A stretch of 64,000 bases of DNA from Flavobacteriales bacterium (GTDB lineage Bacteria; Bacteroidota; Bacteroidia; Flavobacteriales_F; PHOS-HE28). The stretch lies in contig JBGAGX010000001.1 of assembly GCA_044226515.1 (NCBI GenBank), forward strand, positions 19,321 to 83,320, in the 5' to 3' direction. Positions 6,103 to 50,838 of this stretch are shown one piece after another. The position numbers and the translations under genes were made by a program. Position 1 is the stretch's first letter. Each line of letters opens with the position of its first letter. The notes under the pieces are model-generated. The model ran no database searches and was not told the DNA's origin. It saw only the letters and a list, made by a program, of their open reading frames with translations.

Positions 6103-9100
6103 CTACCGGCGCATCACACGCAGGGACGCGCTGCGACCCTCGCAGGTGAGGCGCACCAGGTACAGCCCCGGTGCCTCGCCGGACAGGTCGATGAGCGTTT
6201 CGGTGGTACCGGTGAGCTCGAGGGAACGCGCGTGCACCCGACGCCCCTGCACGTCCATCACCTCCAGTTGCGCCGGTCCGTCCATGTCCTCCACATGCAG
6301 GCGCACCTCGCCGGAGGTGGGGTTCGGGAAGGCCGAGAGCGCGAAGGCCCGCTCCGGTTCGTTGATGCCCACGAAGCCGTTCAGTGTGAAGGACCAGTGC
6401 AGGCTGCGCCCGAACTCCGACTGGAAGCTCTTGAGCGTGGCCCCGTTCTTCTTCTTCAGGCGGAACTGGCCCACACCCGCATCGGGGTCGGCCCAGTACG
6501 AGAGCCCGTCGTTGCCGGTGTCGAGCACCTCGATGCTGTAGCAGCCGTCCCACAGCTCCAGCGTGTCCTGGTAAACGGTGTTGGCGGCCATGTTGGTCCT
6601 GCTGTACACCACGGTGCCCACGATGTCGCGGATGGTGATGCTGTTCTCGGCGGGCCTGTTGTTCGTCTTCATGTACACGATGAAATTATCACTGTACATC
6701 GCGGGCAGGGCGAAGTGCGTGGTGTAGCTGTCGTTCGCCGCGTAACCGTCCGCGCCGCCGTTGGCGCTCACCACGCTCACGGTGAAGAGCTGGTCGCTGT
6801 CGCCCGCCCAGAAGGCGCCGTCGGTCACCGGCAGCGTCACCTCCTCCTGTTGCATGTGCTTCAGCAGGCCGGTCCAGGTGTGGTACTTCAGGTTGCCACC
6901 GCTCACGCCATAGGCGAACTCCACACTGGTGAGGTCCTGTGCGCCGGCGTTGCGGAGCACCACCACGGGCTCGTTGCAGATGGGGTTGTCGCGGCGTTGG
7001 TAGCCTTCATCGCTGGGGCGCTTCACGTGGTGGATCTCCGCGTCCACCGCGTGGGTCGCCGGGCCGAATTCGAAGAGGTCCATGTTCATCACGTAGTTGC
7101 CGCCGGCCATGCCGATGTTGGTGGAGGGCACGGGGGTGATGGCGTAATCGAGCACGAGTGCGGAGGAGGTCACGTACGGGGTGAGCTCGGTGACGTGGTC
7201 CTTCACCACATCGCCGGGGCACCAGCCTTCGCGGCTGCCGAGCCAGGTGCCGCCCTGCGGGTACACGGGGTTCAACGCGCAGTCGTTCGTCTGCCAAACG
7301 TGCCACTCATCGACCGGGAAGCCGTTGGCGTAGAGGTAGTGCGTGTTGTCCTTCCATTCGCAGCAGTGCGGGTAGGTGCCGTCGTTGCTGTTGTGGCCGT
7401 GGCCGGTGAGGCGCGAGCGCAACGCCCATTGCGTGGCCTGGGGATGGAGCTGCACGGTGATGGCGGCCATCTGCGAATCGTCGCTGAGGGCGCCGTAGCT
7501 GCGGCTGGCCAAGGGGCCCCAGGGGCGCTGCACGTTCACCACGGGGCGCGGGGCCTCGCCTTCGATGAGCTCGAAGTCCAGGTCGATGAGCTCCTGCTGG
7601 TTCCCGGCCGAAAGCTCCACGCTGTCGTGCAGCAGGAACTGGTAGTCGGTGACGTCGAAGGTCCACGTGAAGCCGTTGGCGCCCAGGTTCAGCCCGATGC
7701 CGTACGGCGTGATGTAGCGCCCGATCTCCCAGTCCCGCACCAGCTCGAAGGGCACGCCGAAGTAGTGGAGCGTGTCGTTCACCAGCACCGCGCCGGTGGC
7801 GAGCGTGCTGTCCTGGGCCGAGCTGTCCGCGGCGTAGGTGTACTGCCACCCCGTGCCGTAGCCGAACACGGTGTCCACCGGCACCACGGCGTTGCCGCTC
7901 ACCTGGAAGTGCTCCACCGCCGTACCGGGAAGGGGTTCGGGCCAACTGCGTACCAGCGTGTCAAGCACGTCGCTGTAGGTGCCCTGCACGAAGGTGATGT
8001 CGGGCCGCACGCTCACGGTAAGCTCGGCGCCGCGCAGGTCCTCGGGCCGCTCGTACACGCGCTGCACGGTGCCCATGAGCCAGCCCGGTGCGCTGGACAC
8101 GGCCAGGTTCTCGGCCTTGTGCGGCAGGTCCGTGGTCTCGTTGAAGCCATAGGCGCACACGATGGCGCTCCACGAGGGATGCGCCGGGTCGATGGCACGG
8201 CCGGCGAGCTGGGCGATGGTGGCGGCATCGAGCTCCTGGTCGAAGATGGCGAGGTCGTCGAGCTCACCGGGGTAGGGGTTGTTGCGGTCAGCGTCGGCGC
8301 CGAAGTTGGCGCGCACAATGCCGCCCATCGGTCGTGTGAACCCGTTGCCGCTGTGCCACAGCACACCGTTCAGGTAGATCTTCATGGTGCCCGTGGTGGT
8401 GTTCTTGGTGAACGCCCAATGGTTCCACTGGCCCTGGTACTCCGCGGGAAGGGCGGCCTTGAAGATCCGGTCGTAGGAGCCGCCGGTGTTGCCGGCGTCC
8501 CAGTACACATTGCCGTTGCTCCACGGCAGGTGGATGTTGAGCACGCGGTTGTTCTGCGCGTTGCGCGCCTCGAAAGCGCTCGTGTTCAGCGGCAGCGACA
8601 CACCGCCCTTGGCCCAGAACATGACGGTGACCTCGGTGCTGAGCGTGGCCAGCGGAGCAGGCGCCAGCCCGATGAAGTCGTTGTCCACGCGCACATGCCC
8701 GTCGCGCCCCACCTGTTGCACGCCTTCGCCCATGACGGTGTTCGTGCCCACCAGCACCGGGGTCTGCCCGCCGGTCCAGTTCGCGGCCGCAATGTCCACC
8801 AGCAGGTTGCTGACGCCGTCCCACGCGAAGGGGGCATGGAGCTCCAGGGTGGCGATGCCCATGTTCTGGAACACGGCCCCATCGCCCTGGTGGACCGTTA
8901 CAAGCCCGGCCTCATCGAAGGTGCTGAGCGTGGTGGCGGCGGTGTTCTTCAGTCGGAGCGTGATCCGCTCCACTGCGCCGGGCAGGCTCACCTCCAGACG
9001 CAGGCGGTCGATGGGCAGGCCTGCCACCAGGCCCGCCGCGGCGAGGTCCTGCGCGGTGAGGATGAACTGCGAGCGCACGGTGCCACGGTCCGCGAGCAAC

Positions 9101-47776: not shown

Positions 47777-49144
47777 ATGCGTTATCTGCTCATCCTCTGC
47801 CGCGTCCTTGTGGGCGCCACCTTCATCGTCAGCGGCCTGGTGAAGGCCAACGACCCGCTCGGCTTCAGCTACAAGCTGGAGGAGTACTTCGCCGAGAGCG
47901 CGCTGAACTGGCCGGCGCTCGAGCCGTGGTCGCTCACCCTCGCCATCCTGGCCTGCCTGGGCGAGATCGTGCTGGGCTTCGCGATCCTGGTGGGCGGCCG
48001 CATGCGCCTGGCCACCACCGCCACACTGGCGCTCACCCTCTTCTTCGGCTGGCTCACCGCCTACACCGACCAGTGCAACCAGCGCCAGAAGGCCGGTGAG
48101 AAGATGACCTACACCGTGGTGGAGAACGGGGTGGAGGTGGAGCACGACAAGACCTGCGTCACCGACTGCGGCTGCTTCGGTGATGCCATGAAGGGCTCCA
48201 TCGGCCGCAGCCTCACCCCGCGCGAGAGCTTCTACAAGGACCTCATCCTGTTCATCTTCCTGCTGCCCGTGTTCATCGCCAGCTGGCGCAAGCCCGGCAT
48301 CGGGTTCAACACCGCGGCCGAGGACCGGTGGCTGCTCGGACTCGGGGCCGTGGCGGTGGCCATCTGGAGCTGGGTCTTCGGCTGGAGCTTCTACCTCCTG
48401 TTCACGGCCGTGGGCATGGCCGGCTACCTGGTGATCAAGCGCATGGTGCAGGGCGTGAAGGGCGAGTGGGTCACCGCCGGCTGGGTCACCGTGCTCAGCG
48501 GCCTCTTCATGTGGTACTGCCTCAACCACCTGCCCATGAAGGACTACCGCCCCTTCGCCATCGGCAAGAGCATCCCGGAGGGCATGGCCGTTCCGCCCGG
48601 CGAGAAGCCCGATGTGTACGAGACCGTGCTCACCTACAAGAACATGAAGACCGGTGAGATGAAGGACTTTTCCAGCGCCGACTACCCCTGGCAGGACAGC
48701 ACCTGGGTGTGGCAGGCCACCGAGAACAAGCTCGTGCAGGAAGGGTACCACCCGCCAATCCACGATTTCGTGCTCACCGACAAGGACGGTGTCGATGTGA
48801 CGGAGGGTATTCTCGCCGAGCCTACGCCGGTGGTGCTGGTGGTGAGCAAGGACATCACGGAAGCATCAGGTGCATGCCAGCCGGCGATCAACACCCTCGC
48901 TGACGCCGCCTTCAAGAACGGTTGGTATGTCTATGGCGTCACCGCCAGTGGCTACGAGCAGATCGAGGAGTTCCGCCACACGCACCAGAACCCCTTCGAC
49001 TACCTGCGCTGCGACGGCACCGTGCTCAAGACCATCATCCGCAGCAACCCCGGCATCGTGCTGCTGCAGCAGGGCACCGTGCGCGGCCAGTGGCACTGCA
49101 ACGATGTGCCCGCGCTGGAGGAGGCGAAGGGGGCGTTGAAGTAG
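47777..49144 (+). CDS. DoxX-family membrane domain fused to C-terminal thioredoxin-like (TlpA-like) domain protein
   Basis: Met50 of ORF 47630..49144 begins MRYLLILCRVLVGATFIVSGLVKANDPLGF (DoxX-like helices). The C-terminal soluble domain carries Cys pairs (CVTDCGCFGD). Confidence 0.7.
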   Translation: MRYLLILCRVLVGATFIVSGLVKANDPLGFSYKLEEYFAESALNWPALEPWSLTLAILACLGEIVLGFAILVGGRMRLATTATLALTLFFGWLTAYTDQCNQRQKAGEKMTYTVVENGVEVEHDKTCVTDCGCFGDAMKGSIGRSLTPRESFYKDLILFIFLLPVFIASWRKPGIGFNTAAEDRWLLGLGAVAVAIWSWVFGWSFYLLFTAVGMAGYLVIKRMVQGVKGEWVTAGWVTVLSGLFMWYCLNHLPMKDYRPFAIGKSIPEGMAVPPGEKPDVYETVLTYKNMKTGEMKDFSSADYPWQDSTWVWQATENKLVQEGYHPPIHDFVLTDKDGVDVTEGILAEPTPVVLVVSKDITEASGACQPAINTLADAAFKNGWYVYGVTASGYEQIEEFRHTHQNPFDYLRCDGTVLKTIIRSNPGIVLLQQGTVRGQWHCNDVPALEEAKGALK

Positions 49145-49294
49145 GATCTTCGGAGCGCTGCCATTCATCCCCCGCATCTGCCTGTCCGGTAGGCAGGCCC
49201 GACTAACGGGTGGAACTGCGAGGTGGCGGAGAGGGAGCTGACACGCGGTCCGCTTCTAGTCTTCGATCACGGTTTGTCCGAGACCGGAAGGCTT

Positions 49295-49993
49295 CTATTC
49301 ATGCTGAATATCATCATGAGCGCAGGACACCCGGTTAGGGGATGTGCGGGAGTTTAGGGAAGCGCATTGGTTCAAGCGAGGCTGAAGGAACCATAAGCCG
49401 AACGGGAAGAATGCTGCGATCAACACCGCATCGACCCAGATCGGAAGAGCAGTCCTTTTGCTTAGGTCGAAAGCGCGTAGGGAGTTGGCCGTTGGGATCA
49501 GGACCCGCAAGCACCACACAATGGCCAACAGGAAGAGTGGTGCGATGAAGTTGAAGTCTGGCGATGGTCGGTCTTTCCGAAGCCAAAGGGAGGCGCACAC
49601 AAACATGGTCAGCATCATTACCGAGGTCAATCGGGTGCGACTTGCCTTATGCCCGGTGGCCAAGACAGCGTCGAACCAGATGCCAAGACAGATGTAAAGA
49701 ATGATCGCTGGTGCAGGAGAGTCTACGAAGGACATTGTCCATCCGAGAATTTGTCTGGCTAGAATGTACAGTGGGTATCCAACGAGGCATATCGAGCACG
49801 TCACGACAAGGAATGCTTGCCAGTGCTTTAGCGCAAAGACAACTCTATGAGTTTGCGCTATTGCTGTCCAACCAGCACTAGGGTTTGCCGATTGCCCATT
49901 CCCTTCTCGGTCTCCGATCACGCCGCTTTTCTTCACCCCCCGAACATAAGCAAAGGCCCTTGCTGTCAGTTGATCACGATCCCCTGTTAGCAC
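49295..49993 (-). CDS. hypothetical 5-TM membrane protein encoded in a low-GC (~52%) island
   Basis: 232-aa ORF with five hydrophobic helices (FLVVTCSICLVGYPLYIL, IILYICLGIWFDAVLA, VMMLTMFVCASLWL, IAPLFLLAIVWCLRVLIP, LPIWVDAVLIAAFFPFGLWFL). Its composition differs markedly from the flanking CDS at ~68-70% GC. No family was recognised. Confidence 0.5.
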   Translation of the reverse strand: MLTGDRDQLTARAFAYVRGVKKSGVIGDREGNGQSANPSAGWTAIAQTHRVVFALKHWQAFLVVTCSICLVGYPLYILARQILGWTMSFVDSPAPAIILYICLGIWFDAVLATGHKASRTRLTSVMMLTMFVCASLWLRKDRPSPDFNFIAPLFLLAIVWCLRVLIPTANSLRAFDLSKRTALPIWVDAVLIAAFFPFGLWFLQPRLNQCASLNSRTSPNRVSCAHDDIQHE

Positions 49994-50076
49994 TTGTCCC
50001 CAGCCCGTTCGCGAAGGGTGTGCGGGTAGGCCATCTTTGTCCTTCCACCTTCCGCACCAGCGGGCGGTGAAAGCGC

Positions 50077-50838
50077 ATGCGAACGATCGTGGCCGGGAAT
50101 TGGAAGATGCACAAGGACAAGGCGGAAGCTCTGGCCTTGCTGGATGAGTTGGTGAAGGCGAACGCGGGGCAGCCTGGCGGTGTGGAGGTCATCGTGTCGC
50201 CGCCCTTTCCTTTTCTGGACCTGGCGGTCCGCACCGTGAAGGGTTCAGGGATCCAGGTGGCGGCGCAGAACTGCCACGCCGCCGCGCAAGGCGCCTACAC
50301 CGGCGAGGTAAGCGTGCTGATGCTGAAGAGCATCGGTGTCTCCCATTGCATCGTAGGGCACAGTGAGCGGCGTCAGTACTTCGGCGAGAACGATGTTCAG
50401 GTGGCCGAGAAGTTGAAGGCACTGCTCTTCCACGGCCTTACGCCCATCTACTGCTGCGGCGAGAAGCTGGACGAGCGCGAGGCCGGTCACTACTTCCGGG
50501 TGGTGGAGGCGCAGATGAAGGATGCGCTGGACGGTCTTTCCGCGGAGGAGCTGGTCCGCTGCATCATCGCCTACGAACCGGTGTGGGCCATCGGCACCGG
50601 GCGCACGGCAAGCGCCGAACAGGCGCAGGAGATGCACGCCTTCATCCGTGAATACCTCACTGGCCGCGGAACGCCCGAAGTGCCCATCCTCTACGGCGGC
50701 AGCTGCAAGCCCGACAACGCCGCATCGCTCTTCGCCTGTCCCGATGTGAACGGAGGTCTCATCGGCGGTGCCGCCCTGGATGCCGCCCAGTTCACCGCCC
50801 TCATCCGCATCGCCCGCGAAGCCAAGCACGGTTCCTGA
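50077..50838 (+). CDS. tpiA: triosephosphate isomerase
   Basis: MRTIVAGNWKMHK…IVGHSERRQYF…AYEPVWAIGTG contains the catalytic Lys, His and Glu motifs. Confidence 0.95.
   Translation: MRTIVAGNWKMHKDKAEALALLDELVKANAGQPGGVEVIVSPPFPFLDLAVRTVKGSGIQVAAQNCHAAAQGAYTGEVSVLMLKSIGVSHCIVGHSERRQYFGENDVQVAEKLKALLFHGLTPIYCCGEKLDEREAGHYFRVVEAQMKDALDGLSAEELVRCIIAYEPVWAIGTGRTASAEQAQEMHAFIREYLTGRGTPEVPILYGGSCKPDNAASLFACPDVNGGLIGGAALDAAQFTALIRIAREAKHGS

What the first reader, a model, noticed from the sequence alone, without database searches (positions are those of the whole stretch)
49150..50070. Low-GC (~52%) 0.9-kb islet carrying a 5-TM membrane protein gene inserted between the DoxX/TlpA-like gene and tpiA
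Flanking coding sequence is ~68-70% GC. This segment, including the 232-aa ORF 49295..49993, drops to roughly 50-52% GC with a different codon style. That is the signature of a recent horizontal insertion such as a small cargo gene, an immunity protein or a remnant of a mobile element. Short GATCACG-containing sequences occur at both borders (about 49266 and about 49975) and could be target duplications, though that is weak evidence.
Basis: seen in the sequence. Interest (0 to 1): 0.6.

Follow-up and report, generated by a model that had tools for sequence, protein, structure and literature searches.

The report
Acquired orphan toxin-immunity-like membrane gene
A 0.8-kb piece of foreign DNA carrying one small membrane-protein gene sits between two housekeeping genes; the same gene elsewhere sits behind an Rhs toxin, so it is probably a stray "immunity" gene against a rival's toxin, which is a known kind of event involving an undescribed protein family.

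Summary
The low-GC islet is real. It is the only stretch of the 64-kb window below 58.5% GC (0.533 against a mean of 0.665, 5 SD), and its gene has GC3 0.59 against 0.82-0.91 in the neighbours.

Related Flavobacteriales keep the DoxX-tpiA pair. Many have only 69-122 nt between the two genes, including the nearest relative found. A sister group carries an unrelated low-GC ORFan at the same spot and on the same strand. The islet (about 49171-49968) is therefore an insertion.

Its right junction is exact: the conserved tpiA-upstream block starts at 49969. The GATCACG "target duplication" is not one. The 232-aa ORF is over-extended, because its first 8 codons lie in native DNA. The real product is about 208-213 aa with five TM helices.

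The protein has no Pfam, NCBIfam, PADLOC or PDB relative. Only 10 close clusters exist, and every one is GC-poor relative to its host. In three loci it is the third gene of a conserved cassette: Rhs protein with one particular C-terminal toxin domain, then a 245-aa lipoprotein, then this protein. Elsewhere it is solitary.

Best reading: a horizontally acquired orphan immunity-type gene. The insertion is well supported. The immunity role rests on gene context only.

The parts
47777..49144 (+). Left flanking resident gene: DoxX/MauE membrane domain plus thioredoxin-like C-terminus (455 aa from ATG 47777)
   Evidence: Pfam MauE 6e-11, DoxX 4e-6, weak AhpC-TSA. The 455-aa homologues match it end to end. 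GC3 is 0.91.
49145..49170 (.). Probable remnant of the native DoxX-tpiA spacer. The left junction of the insertion lies somewhere in 49145-49177.
   Evidence: The empty site L019 has only 17 nt (GCCGCTGCGGCATCGCG) between the DoxX stop and TTGATCACG. Window 49153-49170 (GAGCGCTGCCATTCATC) resembles that stretch loosely. The boundary is inferred and not exact.
49171..49968 (.). Inserted low-GC segment, about 0.8 kb
   Evidence: It is absent from L019, L020 and L021, and is replaced by unrelated sequence in L022-L024. It is the GC minimum of the window.
49177..49197 (.). GC-rich hairpin TCTGCCTGTCCGGTAGGCAGG, about 100 nt downstream of the gene's stop; part of the transferred unit and possibly a terminator
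   Evidence: A 20/21 match lies about 90 nt downstream of the homologous gene in L106. The motif is unique in the window, with 0 expected by chance, and occurs in only 1 of 107 loci. It has no T-run, and no terminator was called.
49295..49936 (-). Gene for a five-TM membrane protein of an undescribed family (213 aa from GTG 49936, or 208 aa from GTG 49921). The conserved core is encoded by about 49352-49864.
   Evidence: Ten homologous clusters at 48-64% identity. All 35 family-invariant residues are present. Codon-position divergence runs pos3 > pos1 > pos2. The AF2 model has pLDDT 83.9 and pTM 0.75 and shows helices 33-59, 70-89, 94-113, 123-151 and 161-193. There is no start codon at the homologues' start position.
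49937..49993 (-). Upstream in-frame extension of the mechanical 232-aa ORF. It is not part of the conserved protein, and its first 8 codons (49970-49993) are native DNA.
   Evidence: The peptide VLTGDRDQ is encoded identically upstream of the unrelated L022/L023 gene by the shared native block.
49969..50076 (+). Conserved native tpiA-upstream block. It begins G/TTGATCACGATCCCCTGTT and contains CCATCTTTG, which resembles a Bacteroidetes -7 promoter box. Its left edge is the exact right junction of the insertion.
   Evidence: It aligns in the window, L019 (empty site) and L022/L023 (a different insert), and all sequence to its left diverges. blastn alignments to L019, L022 and L024 all start at 49969/49970. 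The promoter reading is inference.
50077..50838 (+). Right flanking resident gene tpiA
   Evidence: Pfam TIM 2e-90. GC3 is 0.82.
49259..49271 (+). Left copy of a 13-nt direct repeat (GTCTTCGATCACG). The right copy is at 49910-49922 (GTCTCCGATCACG). The pair brackets the gene but is probably chance.
   Evidence: My estimate is that 12/13 matches in 1.1 kb are expected about 0.4-1 time by chance. The motif is not found next to homologues in other loci.

Best explanation
An approximately 0.8-kb piece of foreign DNA (about 49171-49968) has been inserted into the short spacer between a DoxX/thioredoxin-like gene and tpiA of a high-GC Flavobacteriales genome. The tpiA promoter block was left intact. 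The insert carries one gene, on the strand opposite to its neighbours, plus a downstream GC hairpin.

The gene encodes a five-helix inner-membrane protein of about 210 aa from a small, undescribed family. The N-terminal motif is LKHWQxF and the C-terminal motif is FPFGxWxxQPRLN.

In other Flavobacteriales the same protein is the third gene of a conserved cassette: an Rhs/YD-repeat protein ending in one particular beta-rich, roughly 200-aa C-terminal toxin domain, then a 245-aa lipoprotein, then this membrane protein. I therefore read the window copy as an orphan immunity-type gene. Without the toxin, it would protect the cell against that Rhs toxin when delivered by competitors. The most likely mechanism is that it meets the toxin in the cytoplasmic membrane and blocks its insertion or activity, as the membrane-embedded immunity proteins of pore-forming colicins and CDI ionophore toxins do.

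What is shown:
- the composition anomaly;
- the insertion, by comparison with empty and alternatively filled sites;
- that the gene is real and intact;
- the cassette linkage and its co-variation with the toxin domain;
- the scattered solitary copies.

What is inferred:
- that the protein, rather than or together with the lipoprotein, confers immunity;
- the membrane-level mechanism;
- expression from GTG 49936 or 49921;
- the route of insertion, which is probably recombination at a variable spot, since no mobile-element hallmark is present.
For: Composition. This is the lowest GC of the 64 kb (5 sd below the mean), with GC3 0.59 against 0.82-0.91 in the neighbours.

Insertion.
- L019, L020 and L021, from three samples, have DoxX-122 nt-tpiA.
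- Thirteen further DoxX-tpiA loci have gaps of 69-213 nt.
- L022-L024 carry an unrelated 168-aa low-GC gene at the same place and on the same strand.
- The junction is exact at 49969.

Real gene.
- Ten homologous clusters exist at 48-64% identity.
- The invariant residues are kept.
- Divergence is highest at codon position 3.
- The AF2 model is confident, with pLDDT 83.9.

Toxin linkage.
- L004, L009-L013 and L014/L015 share the gene order Rhs, then a 245-aa protein (4-nt overlap with the Rhs gene), then the 166-173-aa homologue.
- Between loci the three parts are 54-60%, 61% and 59% identical.
- Neighbouring Rhs genes with other C-termini are followed by other ORFs.
- Within L004 the GC falls at the toxin-domain boundary and stays low through both downstream genes.

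Mobility. Solitary copies lie in six other unrelated contexts, and every copy is 5-13 GC points below its host locus. In a tree, the solitary copies nest between the two Rhs-linked ones, and the window's closest relative is the Rhs-linked P0001 at 64-65%.

Literature. This identity is close to the 35-62% reported between functional orphan and cognate immunity genes in Bacteroidales (10.1101/2025.05.03.651265). Membrane-embedded immunity to membrane-acting toxins is established for CDI ionophores (PMC11630599).
Against: - Immunity rests on gene context only. It is seen in two protein clusters and three loci.
- The gene immediately after the toxin, translationally coupled to it, is the 245-aa lipoprotein. 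That is the classical position of the immunity gene. The membrane protein is second.
- The toxin domain's activity is unknown, with no Pfam or PDB relative.
- Distant superfamily members at about 20% identity sit in non-toxin contexts. The fold therefore has some other basic role.
- Two copies lie inside non-orthologous RND efflux operons, which hints at a different function.
- The window copy lacks a start codon where its homologues start, and no promoter or terminator could be assigned. Expression is unproven.
- Only 64 kb of the genome is visible, so 'orphan' (no cognate toxin in the genome) is untested beyond.
Confidence: 0.5

Rival explanations
1. The insertion is real, but the protein is not an immunity factor. 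It is a horizontally spreading membrane protein with another envelope function, for example an accessory of RND efflux systems or a membrane-homeostasis enzyme. It rides along in Rhs cassettes only as cargo.
For: - Two family members sit directly after the membrane-fusion gene of two non-orthologous RND operons. The MFPs are 23% identical and the family members 61%. A third copy lies 0.9 kb from an MFP-like gene.
- A wider superfamily shares strictly conserved polar motifs (H/W/Q at the N-terminus, QPRxN at the C-terminus). That pattern is more typical of a catalytic or binding site than of fast-evolving immunity proteins. These distant members are not next to toxins.
- The lipoprotein occupies the canonical immunity position.
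Against: - The trio Rhs C-terminal domain/lipoprotein/membrane protein is conserved across about 40-46% sequence divergence and changes together with the toxin domain.
- All close family members are compositionally foreign and scattered, which is unlike a housekeeping accessory.
- No family member is fused to, or regularly paired with, a transporter gene apart from those two cases.
Confidence: 0.25
2. The gene is an old resident of the DoxX-tpiA spacer that was deleted in the L019 lineage and replaced in the L022 lineage. Its low GC reflects the amino-acid composition of a membrane protein or weak selection, not foreign origin.
For: - The nearest empty-site relative is only about 78-79% identical in neighbouring genes, so the direction of change is not fixed by close relatives.
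- The tpiA-upstream block is 89% identical between the two filled alleles but about 72% identical to the empty one. This could mean the filled state is ancestral.
Against: - GC3, which is largely free of amino-acid effects, is 0.59 against 0.82-0.91 in the neighbours.
- None of about 50 DoxX-tpiA loci from relatives carries this gene.
- Its homologues lie at other, unrelated sites and in Rhs cassettes.
- More distant relatives have empty spacers or same-strand, host-GC genes at this site.
Confidence: 0.05
3. The islet is a dead remnant: a fragment of a broken toxin-immunity cassette or mobile element that is no longer expressed.
For: - There is no start codon at the conserved start position. 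The M of the homologues is W (TGG) here.
- The C-terminal tail of 24 aa is non-conserved.
- No promoter or terminator was called.
- The exact sequence is absent from a collection of 5.8 billion proteins.
Against: - The reading frame is open for 232 codons, with in-frame GTG codons 20-25 codons upstream of the conserved core.
- All invariant residues are retained.
- Substitutions show a coding pattern.
- Two homologues (P0002, P0008) also have N-terminal extensions.
- The promoter scan uses a sigma-70 consensus, which does not apply to Bacteroidota.
Confidence: 0.1
4. The islet is a small autonomous or mobilisable element (IS, MITE or integron cassette) that inserted with duplication of GATCACG.
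For: - GATCACG occurs three times on one strand within 714 nt, where about 0.3 are expected from its density in the window.
- A 13-nt direct repeat and a 10-nt inverted repeat bracket the gene.
- One homologue lies 19 nt downstream of a DDE transposase gene.
Against: - The right-hand GATCACG is native, being present at the empty site.
- The left copy lies inside the insert, 68 nt to the right of a hairpin that travels with the gene in another genome.
- Between the DoxX stop and the left copy there are 120 nt, against 17 nt at the empty site.
- The 13-mer is not found beside any homologue.
- There are no terminal inverted repeats, no transposase or integrase, no tRNA and no attC-like site.
- There are no homologues in the plasmid, phage or viral collections.
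Confidence: 0.05

Closest known systems
Orphan immunity genes of interbacterial toxin systems (AID-1 and recombinase-associated rAID clusters of gut Bacteroidales; 10.1101/2025.05.03.651265)
   Same: - It is a short gene homologous to one linked to a toxin, sitting in a genome region without the toxin.
- It is compositionally foreign.
- Its identity to the toxin-linked copies (52-65%) is close to the 35-62% reported for functional orphans.
- The phylum is Bacteroidota.
   Different: - It is a single gene, not an array.
- There is no tyrosine recombinase and there are no conserved intergenic motifs in the window.
- The toxin is an Rhs/YD protein of environmental Flavobacteriales, not a characterised T6SS effector.
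- The protein is polytopic and membrane-embedded rather than a soluble SUKH-type binder.
- Protection has not been tested.
Rhs/YD-repeat polymorphic toxin cassettes (Rhs core, variable C-terminal toxin, downstream immunity gene, orphan C-terminal fragments; PMC3150448, PMC3482391)
   Same: - The homologous loci show an Rhs core ending in a ...SPYAFS.NRV.D..ELEGLE boundary.
- A variable C-terminal domain follows, then small downstream ORFs that change with that domain.
- Further truncated Rhs fragments carry other C-termini.
- GC drops from the core into the C-terminal and immunity part. From my own knowledge, this is also seen in E. coli rhs elements.
   Different: - Two conserved genes follow the toxin instead of one.
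- The toxin domain, the lipoprotein and the membrane protein all lack known relatives.
- The window itself contains none of the toxin parts.
Membrane-embedded immunity proteins of membrane-acting toxins (CdiI of CDI ionophore toxins, PMC11630599; immunity proteins of pore-forming colicins, from my own knowledge)
   Same: It is a small, very hydrophobic inner-membrane protein encoded next to a polymorphic toxin. This gives a plausible mechanism of neutralising the toxin within the bilayer.
   Different: - There is no sequence or fold relationship.
- It has five helices and about 170 core residues, against two-helix hairpins of 72-100 residues for CdiI.
- The toxin here looks beta-rich, not a helical bundle.
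- Its membrane activity is only a guess.
Small strain-variable islets at recombination hot spots between conserved genes
   Same: Conserved flanks hold alternative, unrelated, GC-poor cargo genes or nothing, in related lineages, with a sharp shared boundary.
   Different: - Only three states of the site are known.
- Both cargos are single small membrane-anchored genes in the same orientation.
- No mechanism has been identified.

Membership tests
Orphan immunity gene of a polymorphic (Rhs) toxin system | Homologue encoded directly downstream of a toxin gene in toxin loci | tested here: met
   L004, L009-L013 and L014/L015 have the order Rhs, 245-aa lipoprotein, homologue, with gaps of 15-34 nt. 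Caveat: it is the second gene after the toxin, not the first.
Orphan immunity gene of a polymorphic (Rhs) toxin system | Presence co-varies with the toxin's C-terminal domain type | tested here: met
   Only Rhs proteins with the shared C-terminal domain (54-60% identity) are followed by the pair. Rhs genes in the same loci with other C-termini are followed by other ORFs. The sample is small: two cluster pairs.
Orphan immunity gene of a polymorphic (Rhs) toxin system | The genome lacks the cognate toxin | tested here: inconclusive
   tblastn finds no Rhs C-terminal domain and no 245-aa lipoprotein in the 64-kb window. The rest of the genome is not available.
Orphan immunity gene of a polymorphic (Rhs) toxin system | The protein neutralises the toxin (binding or protection) | not testable with these tools
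   This needs co-expression or competition assays, or at least multimer modelling.
rAID (recombinase-associated acquired interbacterial defence) cluster | Tyrosine recombinase adjacent | tested here: not met
   The neighbours are DUF1599, PsbP-like, CarboxypepD_reg-like, DoxX, tpiA, prmA and a large protein. None is a recombinase.
rAID (recombinase-associated acquired interbacterial defence) cluster | [quoted passage not shown] | tested here: not met
   The window has a single gene, and no repeat family flanks it. A homologue locus (L001) does have three 197-nt repeats around the gene. That repeat is absent from the window.
Insertion sequence / MITE / transposon | Terminal inverted repeats, target-site duplication, transposase | tested here: not met
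   There are no terminal inverted repeats at the junctions. The GATCACG copies are not at the junctions. The insert has no transposase ORF.
Integron gene cassette | attC recombination site at the 3' end, and an integron integrase or cassette array | tested here: not met
   The only downstream structure is a 7-8-bp GC hairpin. The 150-nt 3' region folds no better than shuffles, z -0.56. There is no intI and no array. No dedicated attC model was run.
Genomic island integrated at a tRNA gene | tRNA/tmRNA target and integrase | tested here: not met
   There are no tRNA or tmRNA genes anywhere in the window.
Any described protein family (Pfam, NCBIfam, PADLOC) or solved fold | Significant profile or fold match | tested here: not met
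   Pfam, NCBIfam and PADLOC give no consistent hit for 49 family and superfamily members. The PDB profile search has best E 1.6. Foldseek against the PDB has best E 1.1 and TM 0.26-0.43.

The most novel reading that the evidence does not exclude
The DoxX-tpiA spacer of this Flavobacteriales group may be a dedicated capture site. It would take up single, promoter-poor, small membrane-protein genes in one fixed orientation, expressed divergently from the conserved tpiA-upstream block, by a mechanism that needs no recombinase or repeats. On this reading, the captured five-TM protein would represent a new class of intramembrane immunity protein against a new beta-rich Rhs toxin. It might act through RND efflux pumps, since family members recur inside RND operons, much as AcrB is the membrane receptor of some CDI ionophore toxins.
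Probability: 0.1. Interest if true: 0.6.

Novelty: new member of a known kind. Interest (0 to 1): 0.33.

Why it matters
The finding gives a clean natural example of a single-gene acquisition into a housekeeping spacer in an uncultured, high-GC Flavobacteriales lineage. An empty allele, a filled allele and an alternatively filled allele are all available for comparison.

It also points to three linked, entirely undescribed protein families that could be tested together as a new toxin-immunity system of environmental Bacteroidota from wastewater and lake habitats:
- an Rhs C-terminal toxin domain;
- a 245-aa lipoprotein;
- a five-TM membrane protein.

If the membrane protein alone protects, it would add a polytopic membrane immunity type to the repertoire. 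It would also show that orphan immunity genes spread as solitary genes outside the gut Bacteroidales, where they are currently documented. Conceptually, though, the event is of a known kind.

Tried and rejected
- Rfam on the islet and on the L001 repeats gave nothing. ARAGORN gave nothing.
- The sigma-70 promoter and terminator scan was uninformative, and the consensus does not suit Bacteroidota.
- The first AF2 run, with 11 sequences, was poor at pLDDT 58. The second, with 49 sequences, was good, but Foldseek against the PDB found only generic helical bundles with E > 1.
- PDB profile searches for the membrane protein, the Rhs C-terminal domain and the lipoprotein were empty.
- PADLOC, viral contigs, plasmids and phages contained no relatives, so a defence-island or phage/plasmid origin was dropped.
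- The second gene at the same site (the L022 ORFan) has only 4 clusters, all from the same lineage. It therefore could not test whether the site collects immunity genes.
- A remnant of the 245-aa gene upstream of the window copy was not found.
- I first treated L019 as a '95%' close relative. Nucleotide comparison of the flanks shows only 78-79% identity, so I withdrew 'very recent'.
- The GATCACG and 13-mer repeats were considered as att or TSD sites and rejected.
- The L001 197-nt repeat is not unusually structured, z -0.56.
- Distant superfamily contexts (L005-L008) showed no toxin genes.
Full report
**1. Observation**

The composition anomaly is real and is the strongest in the window.
- With 700-nt windows the 64 kb averages 0.665 GC (sd 0.026). 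The minimum, 0.533, is at 49251, and every window below 0.585 lies in 49051-49701.
- In 200-nt windows GC falls from 0.62-0.67 in the flanks to 0.495-0.565.
- GC3 of the minus-strand ORF is 0.58-0.59, against 0.82 (tpiA), 0.91 (DoxX), 0.88 (prmA) and 0.89 (two further neighbours).
- No Rfam family and no tRNA lies here.

**2. The gene**

ORF 49295..49993 (-) has 10 homologous protein clusters among 5.8 billion sequences. They are 48-64% identical and 129-203 aa long, and they cover only the C-terminal 70-78% of the ORF.
- All 35 family-invariant residues are present in the window copy.
- Nucleotide differences from five homologues are highest at codon position 3 and lowest at position 2. The minus-strand frame is therefore a real, constrained gene.
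- There is no ATG, GTG or TTG where the homologues start; the window has W where they have M. The usable in-frame starts are GTG 49936 and GTG 49921.
- The first 8 codons of the mechanical ORF (VLTGDRDQ) are encoded by native DNA. The same DNA gives the identical peptide upstream of an unrelated gene in L022/L023. The 232-aa length is therefore an artefact of read-through.
- An AlphaFold model built on a 49-sequence alignment is confident (pLDDT 83.9, pTM 0.75). It shows an N-terminal amphipathic helix followed by five long helices, which match five hydropathy peaks.

**3. It is an insertion**

The DoxX-tpiA gene pair is conserved across Flavobacteriales; 50 loci were examined.
- In three independent assemblies of the nearest relative found (L019-L021), the DoxX stop is followed by 122 nt and then tpiA.
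- Thirteen more distant loci have gaps of 69-213 nt. Others hold same-strand genes with host-like GC3: a CarboxypepD_reg-like protein of about 175 aa, a 250-aa protein, and an ABC permease.
- Only the window and the L022-L024 group carry a minus-strand, GC-poor gene. The L022-L024 gene is unrelated: 168 aa, one TM helix plus a soluble domain, GC 0.50-0.54 against 0.60. Only 4 clusters of it are known.
- Alignment of the four kinds of allele shows that a 107-nt block upstream of tpiA, starting G/TTGATCACGATCCCCTGTT, is shared by all. Everything to its left differs, and blastn alignments to L019, L022 and L024 all begin at 49969/49970. The right junction is therefore 49968|49969.
- The left junction lies between the DoxX stop (49144) and the hairpin at 49177, and probably near 49170. 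The empty site has only 17 nt between the DoxX stop and TTGATCACG.

A caution on age. L019 looked like a 95% relative by DoxX protein identity, but its neighbouring genes are only 78-79% identical at the nucleotide level, with DoxX at 91%. The insertion is 'recent' only in the sense that its composition has not ameliorated.

**4. No mobile-element hallmarks**

- GATCACG occurs at 49265, 49916 and 49972. The third copy is native, since it is present at the empty site.
- The first copy lies 68 nt to the right of a 21-nt GC hairpin (49177-49197). That hairpin also follows the homologous gene in L106 (20/21 identical), is unique in the window and occurs in 1 of 107 loci. The 49265 copy is therefore internal to the transferred unit.
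- A 13-nt direct repeat (49259 and 49910, 12/13 identical) brackets the gene. By my estimate it is within chance expectation, and it is not seen next to any homologue.
- There is no transposase, integrase, tRNA, terminal inverted repeat or attC-like structure.
- There are no homologues in viral, phage or plasmid collections.
- How the DNA got in is unknown. Recombination at a variable spacer is the default inference.

**5. What the family is associated with**

All copies are 5-13 GC points below their host loci (profiles).

| Copy | Locus | Context |
|---|---|---|
| (a) P0009 | L004, L009-L013 | Rhs/YD protein, then 245-aa lipoprotein-like ORF (4-nt overlap with Rhs), then the family member |
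| (a) P0001 | L014, L015 | Same order as above |
| (b) P0002 | L016 | 19 nt after a DDE transposase gene |
| (c) P0004 | L001 | Between a ComF-like gene and gpsA, embedded in three 197-nt repeats |
| (d) P0007 | L002 | Right after the membrane-fusion gene of an RND operon |
| (d) P0008 | L106 | Right after the membrane-fusion gene of a second, non-orthologous RND operon |
| (e) P0003 | L104 | Solitary, near a ParE pair |
| (e) P0006 | L107 | Solitary, near an OMP gene |

Details of the Rhs cassette in (a):
- In L004 and L009 the trio is followed by further Rhs fragments.
- The Rhs proteins share a core that ends ...SPYAFS.NRV.D..ELEGLE, followed by a beta-rich, glycine-rich C-terminal domain of about 200 aa.
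- Between the two locus types the C-terminal domain is 54-60% identical, the lipoprotein 61% and the membrane protein 59%.
- Other Rhs genes in the same loci have different C-termini and different downstream ORFs.
- GC drops at the C-terminal domain boundary and stays low through both downstream genes.
- This is the architecture of polymorphic toxin cassettes (PMC3150448, PMC3482391).

Other family-level results:
- In a neighbour-joining tree, the two Rhs-linked copies span the main clade and the solitary copies, including the window's, nest between them.
- The window has no Rhs C-terminal domain and no lipoprotein gene.

**6. Mechanism (inferred)**

The simplest reading is that the membrane protein, alone or together with the lipoprotein, is the self-protection factor for this Rhs toxin. 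Solitary copies such as the window's would then be orphan immunity genes that protect against neighbours' toxins.

Orphan immunity genes with 35-62% identity to their cognates are functional in gut Bacteroidales (10.1101/2025.05.03.651265). Membrane-embedded immunity proteins neutralise membrane-inserting CDI ionophore toxins within the bilayer (PMC11630599).

Weak points of this reading:
- The evidence is context only.
- The lipoprotein holds the canonical immunity position.
- The toxin activity is unknown.
- A wider superfamily sharing the LKHWQ and QPRxN motifs (70 profile hits; alignment) occurs without toxins.
- The RND-operon copies hint at another role.

**7. Comparison with known systems and novelty**

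The protein matches no Pfam, NCBIfam or PADLOC family and no solved fold.

The event itself, a solitary immunity-type gene acquired into a housekeeping spacer, is a known kind. It fails the defining features of rAID clusters, integron cassettes, IS or MITE elements and tRNA islands.

**Verdict**
- The insertion is well supported (about 0.9).
- The immunity function is plausible (about 0.5).
- Overall this is a new member of a known kind, of modest interest.

Noticed in passing
L001 5776-5972, 6550-6746, 6765-6961 (same contig as L003; Flavobacteriales MAG GCA_019638085): Three copies of a ~197-nt direct repeat (87-89% identical) surround the homologous gene. They are followed by a second small low-GC membrane ORF (~6961-7272). 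The layout resembles a cassette array with conserved intergenic repeats, but no recombinase lies within 6 kb. There is no Rfam hit, the fold is not unusually stable (z -0.56), and the repeat is absent from the window and all other loci.
   Followed up: partly
L002 4839-10174 and L106 91-2299: Two family members (61% identical to each other) sit immediately after the membrane-fusion gene of two non-orthologous RND efflux operons, whose MFPs are only 23% identical. In L106 a PDDEXK_3 gene lies in between. A third copy (L104) lies 0.9 kb from an MFP-like N-terminus. This seems too frequent for chance and is unexplained.
   Followed up: partly
L022 6377-6883, L023 6378-6884, L024 ~1268-1771 (all minus strand): At exactly the same DoxX|tpiA site and on the same strand, a sister lineage carries an unrelated low-GC 168-aa ORFan with an N-terminal TM helix and an Asp-rich soluble domain. 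Only 4 clusters of it exist among 5.8 billion proteins.
   Followed up: partly
window 49969-50076 versus L022 6914-7021 and L019 6385-6490: The tpiA-upstream block is 89% identical between the two filled alleles, which carry unrelated genes, but only ~72% identical to the empty allele. Elsewhere the window is as close or closer to L019. Possible explanations are a divergent promoter role, or cargo replacement by recombination.
   Followed up: partly
window 49177-49197 and L106 2388-2408: A near-identical 21-nt GC hairpin (CTGCCTGTCCGG[T/C]AGGCAGG) lies ~90-100 nt downstream of the homologous gene in two unrelated genomes. It appears to travel with the gene.
   Followed up: yes
L002 6522-6716: A cluster of REP-like palindromes (GCTGCGACCCCTCCGGGGTCGCAGC, several copies in both orientations) fills the 524-nt gap between the inserted gene and the RND pump gene.
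   Followed up: no
window, whole 64 kb: GATCACG is nearly three-fold over-represented in the window: 30 copies against 11.2 +/- 3.6 in dinucleotide-preserving shuffles. This makes chance border matches with this motif more likely.
   Followed up: no
L019 7012, L020 7007, L021 3772 (contig ends): All three empty-site contigs, from different samples, end ~520 nt into tpiA. L019 also has ~4.5 kb of extra genes between the PsbP-like gene and DoxX relative to the window. Both points suggest strain-level variability or mosaicism around this locus.
   Followed up: no
L014 585-1108 and L104 920-1320: ParE-type toxin-antitoxin pairs lie next to family members in two loci: upstream of the Rhs gene in L014, and beside the solitary copy in L104. 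This is another sign that these are accessory-genome neighbourhoods.
   Followed up: no
L025-L099 DoxX-tpiA gaps (e.g. L041 4858-5385, L029 4896-5648, L066 5145-6227): In more distant Flavobacteriales the same spacer holds same-strand, host-GC genes: a CarboxypepD_reg-like secreted protein of ~175 aa, a ~250-aa protein, or an ABC permease of ~360 aa. In low-GC relatives DoxX and tpiA are only 5-14 nt apart. The spacer is thus variable over long time scales.
   Followed up: partly
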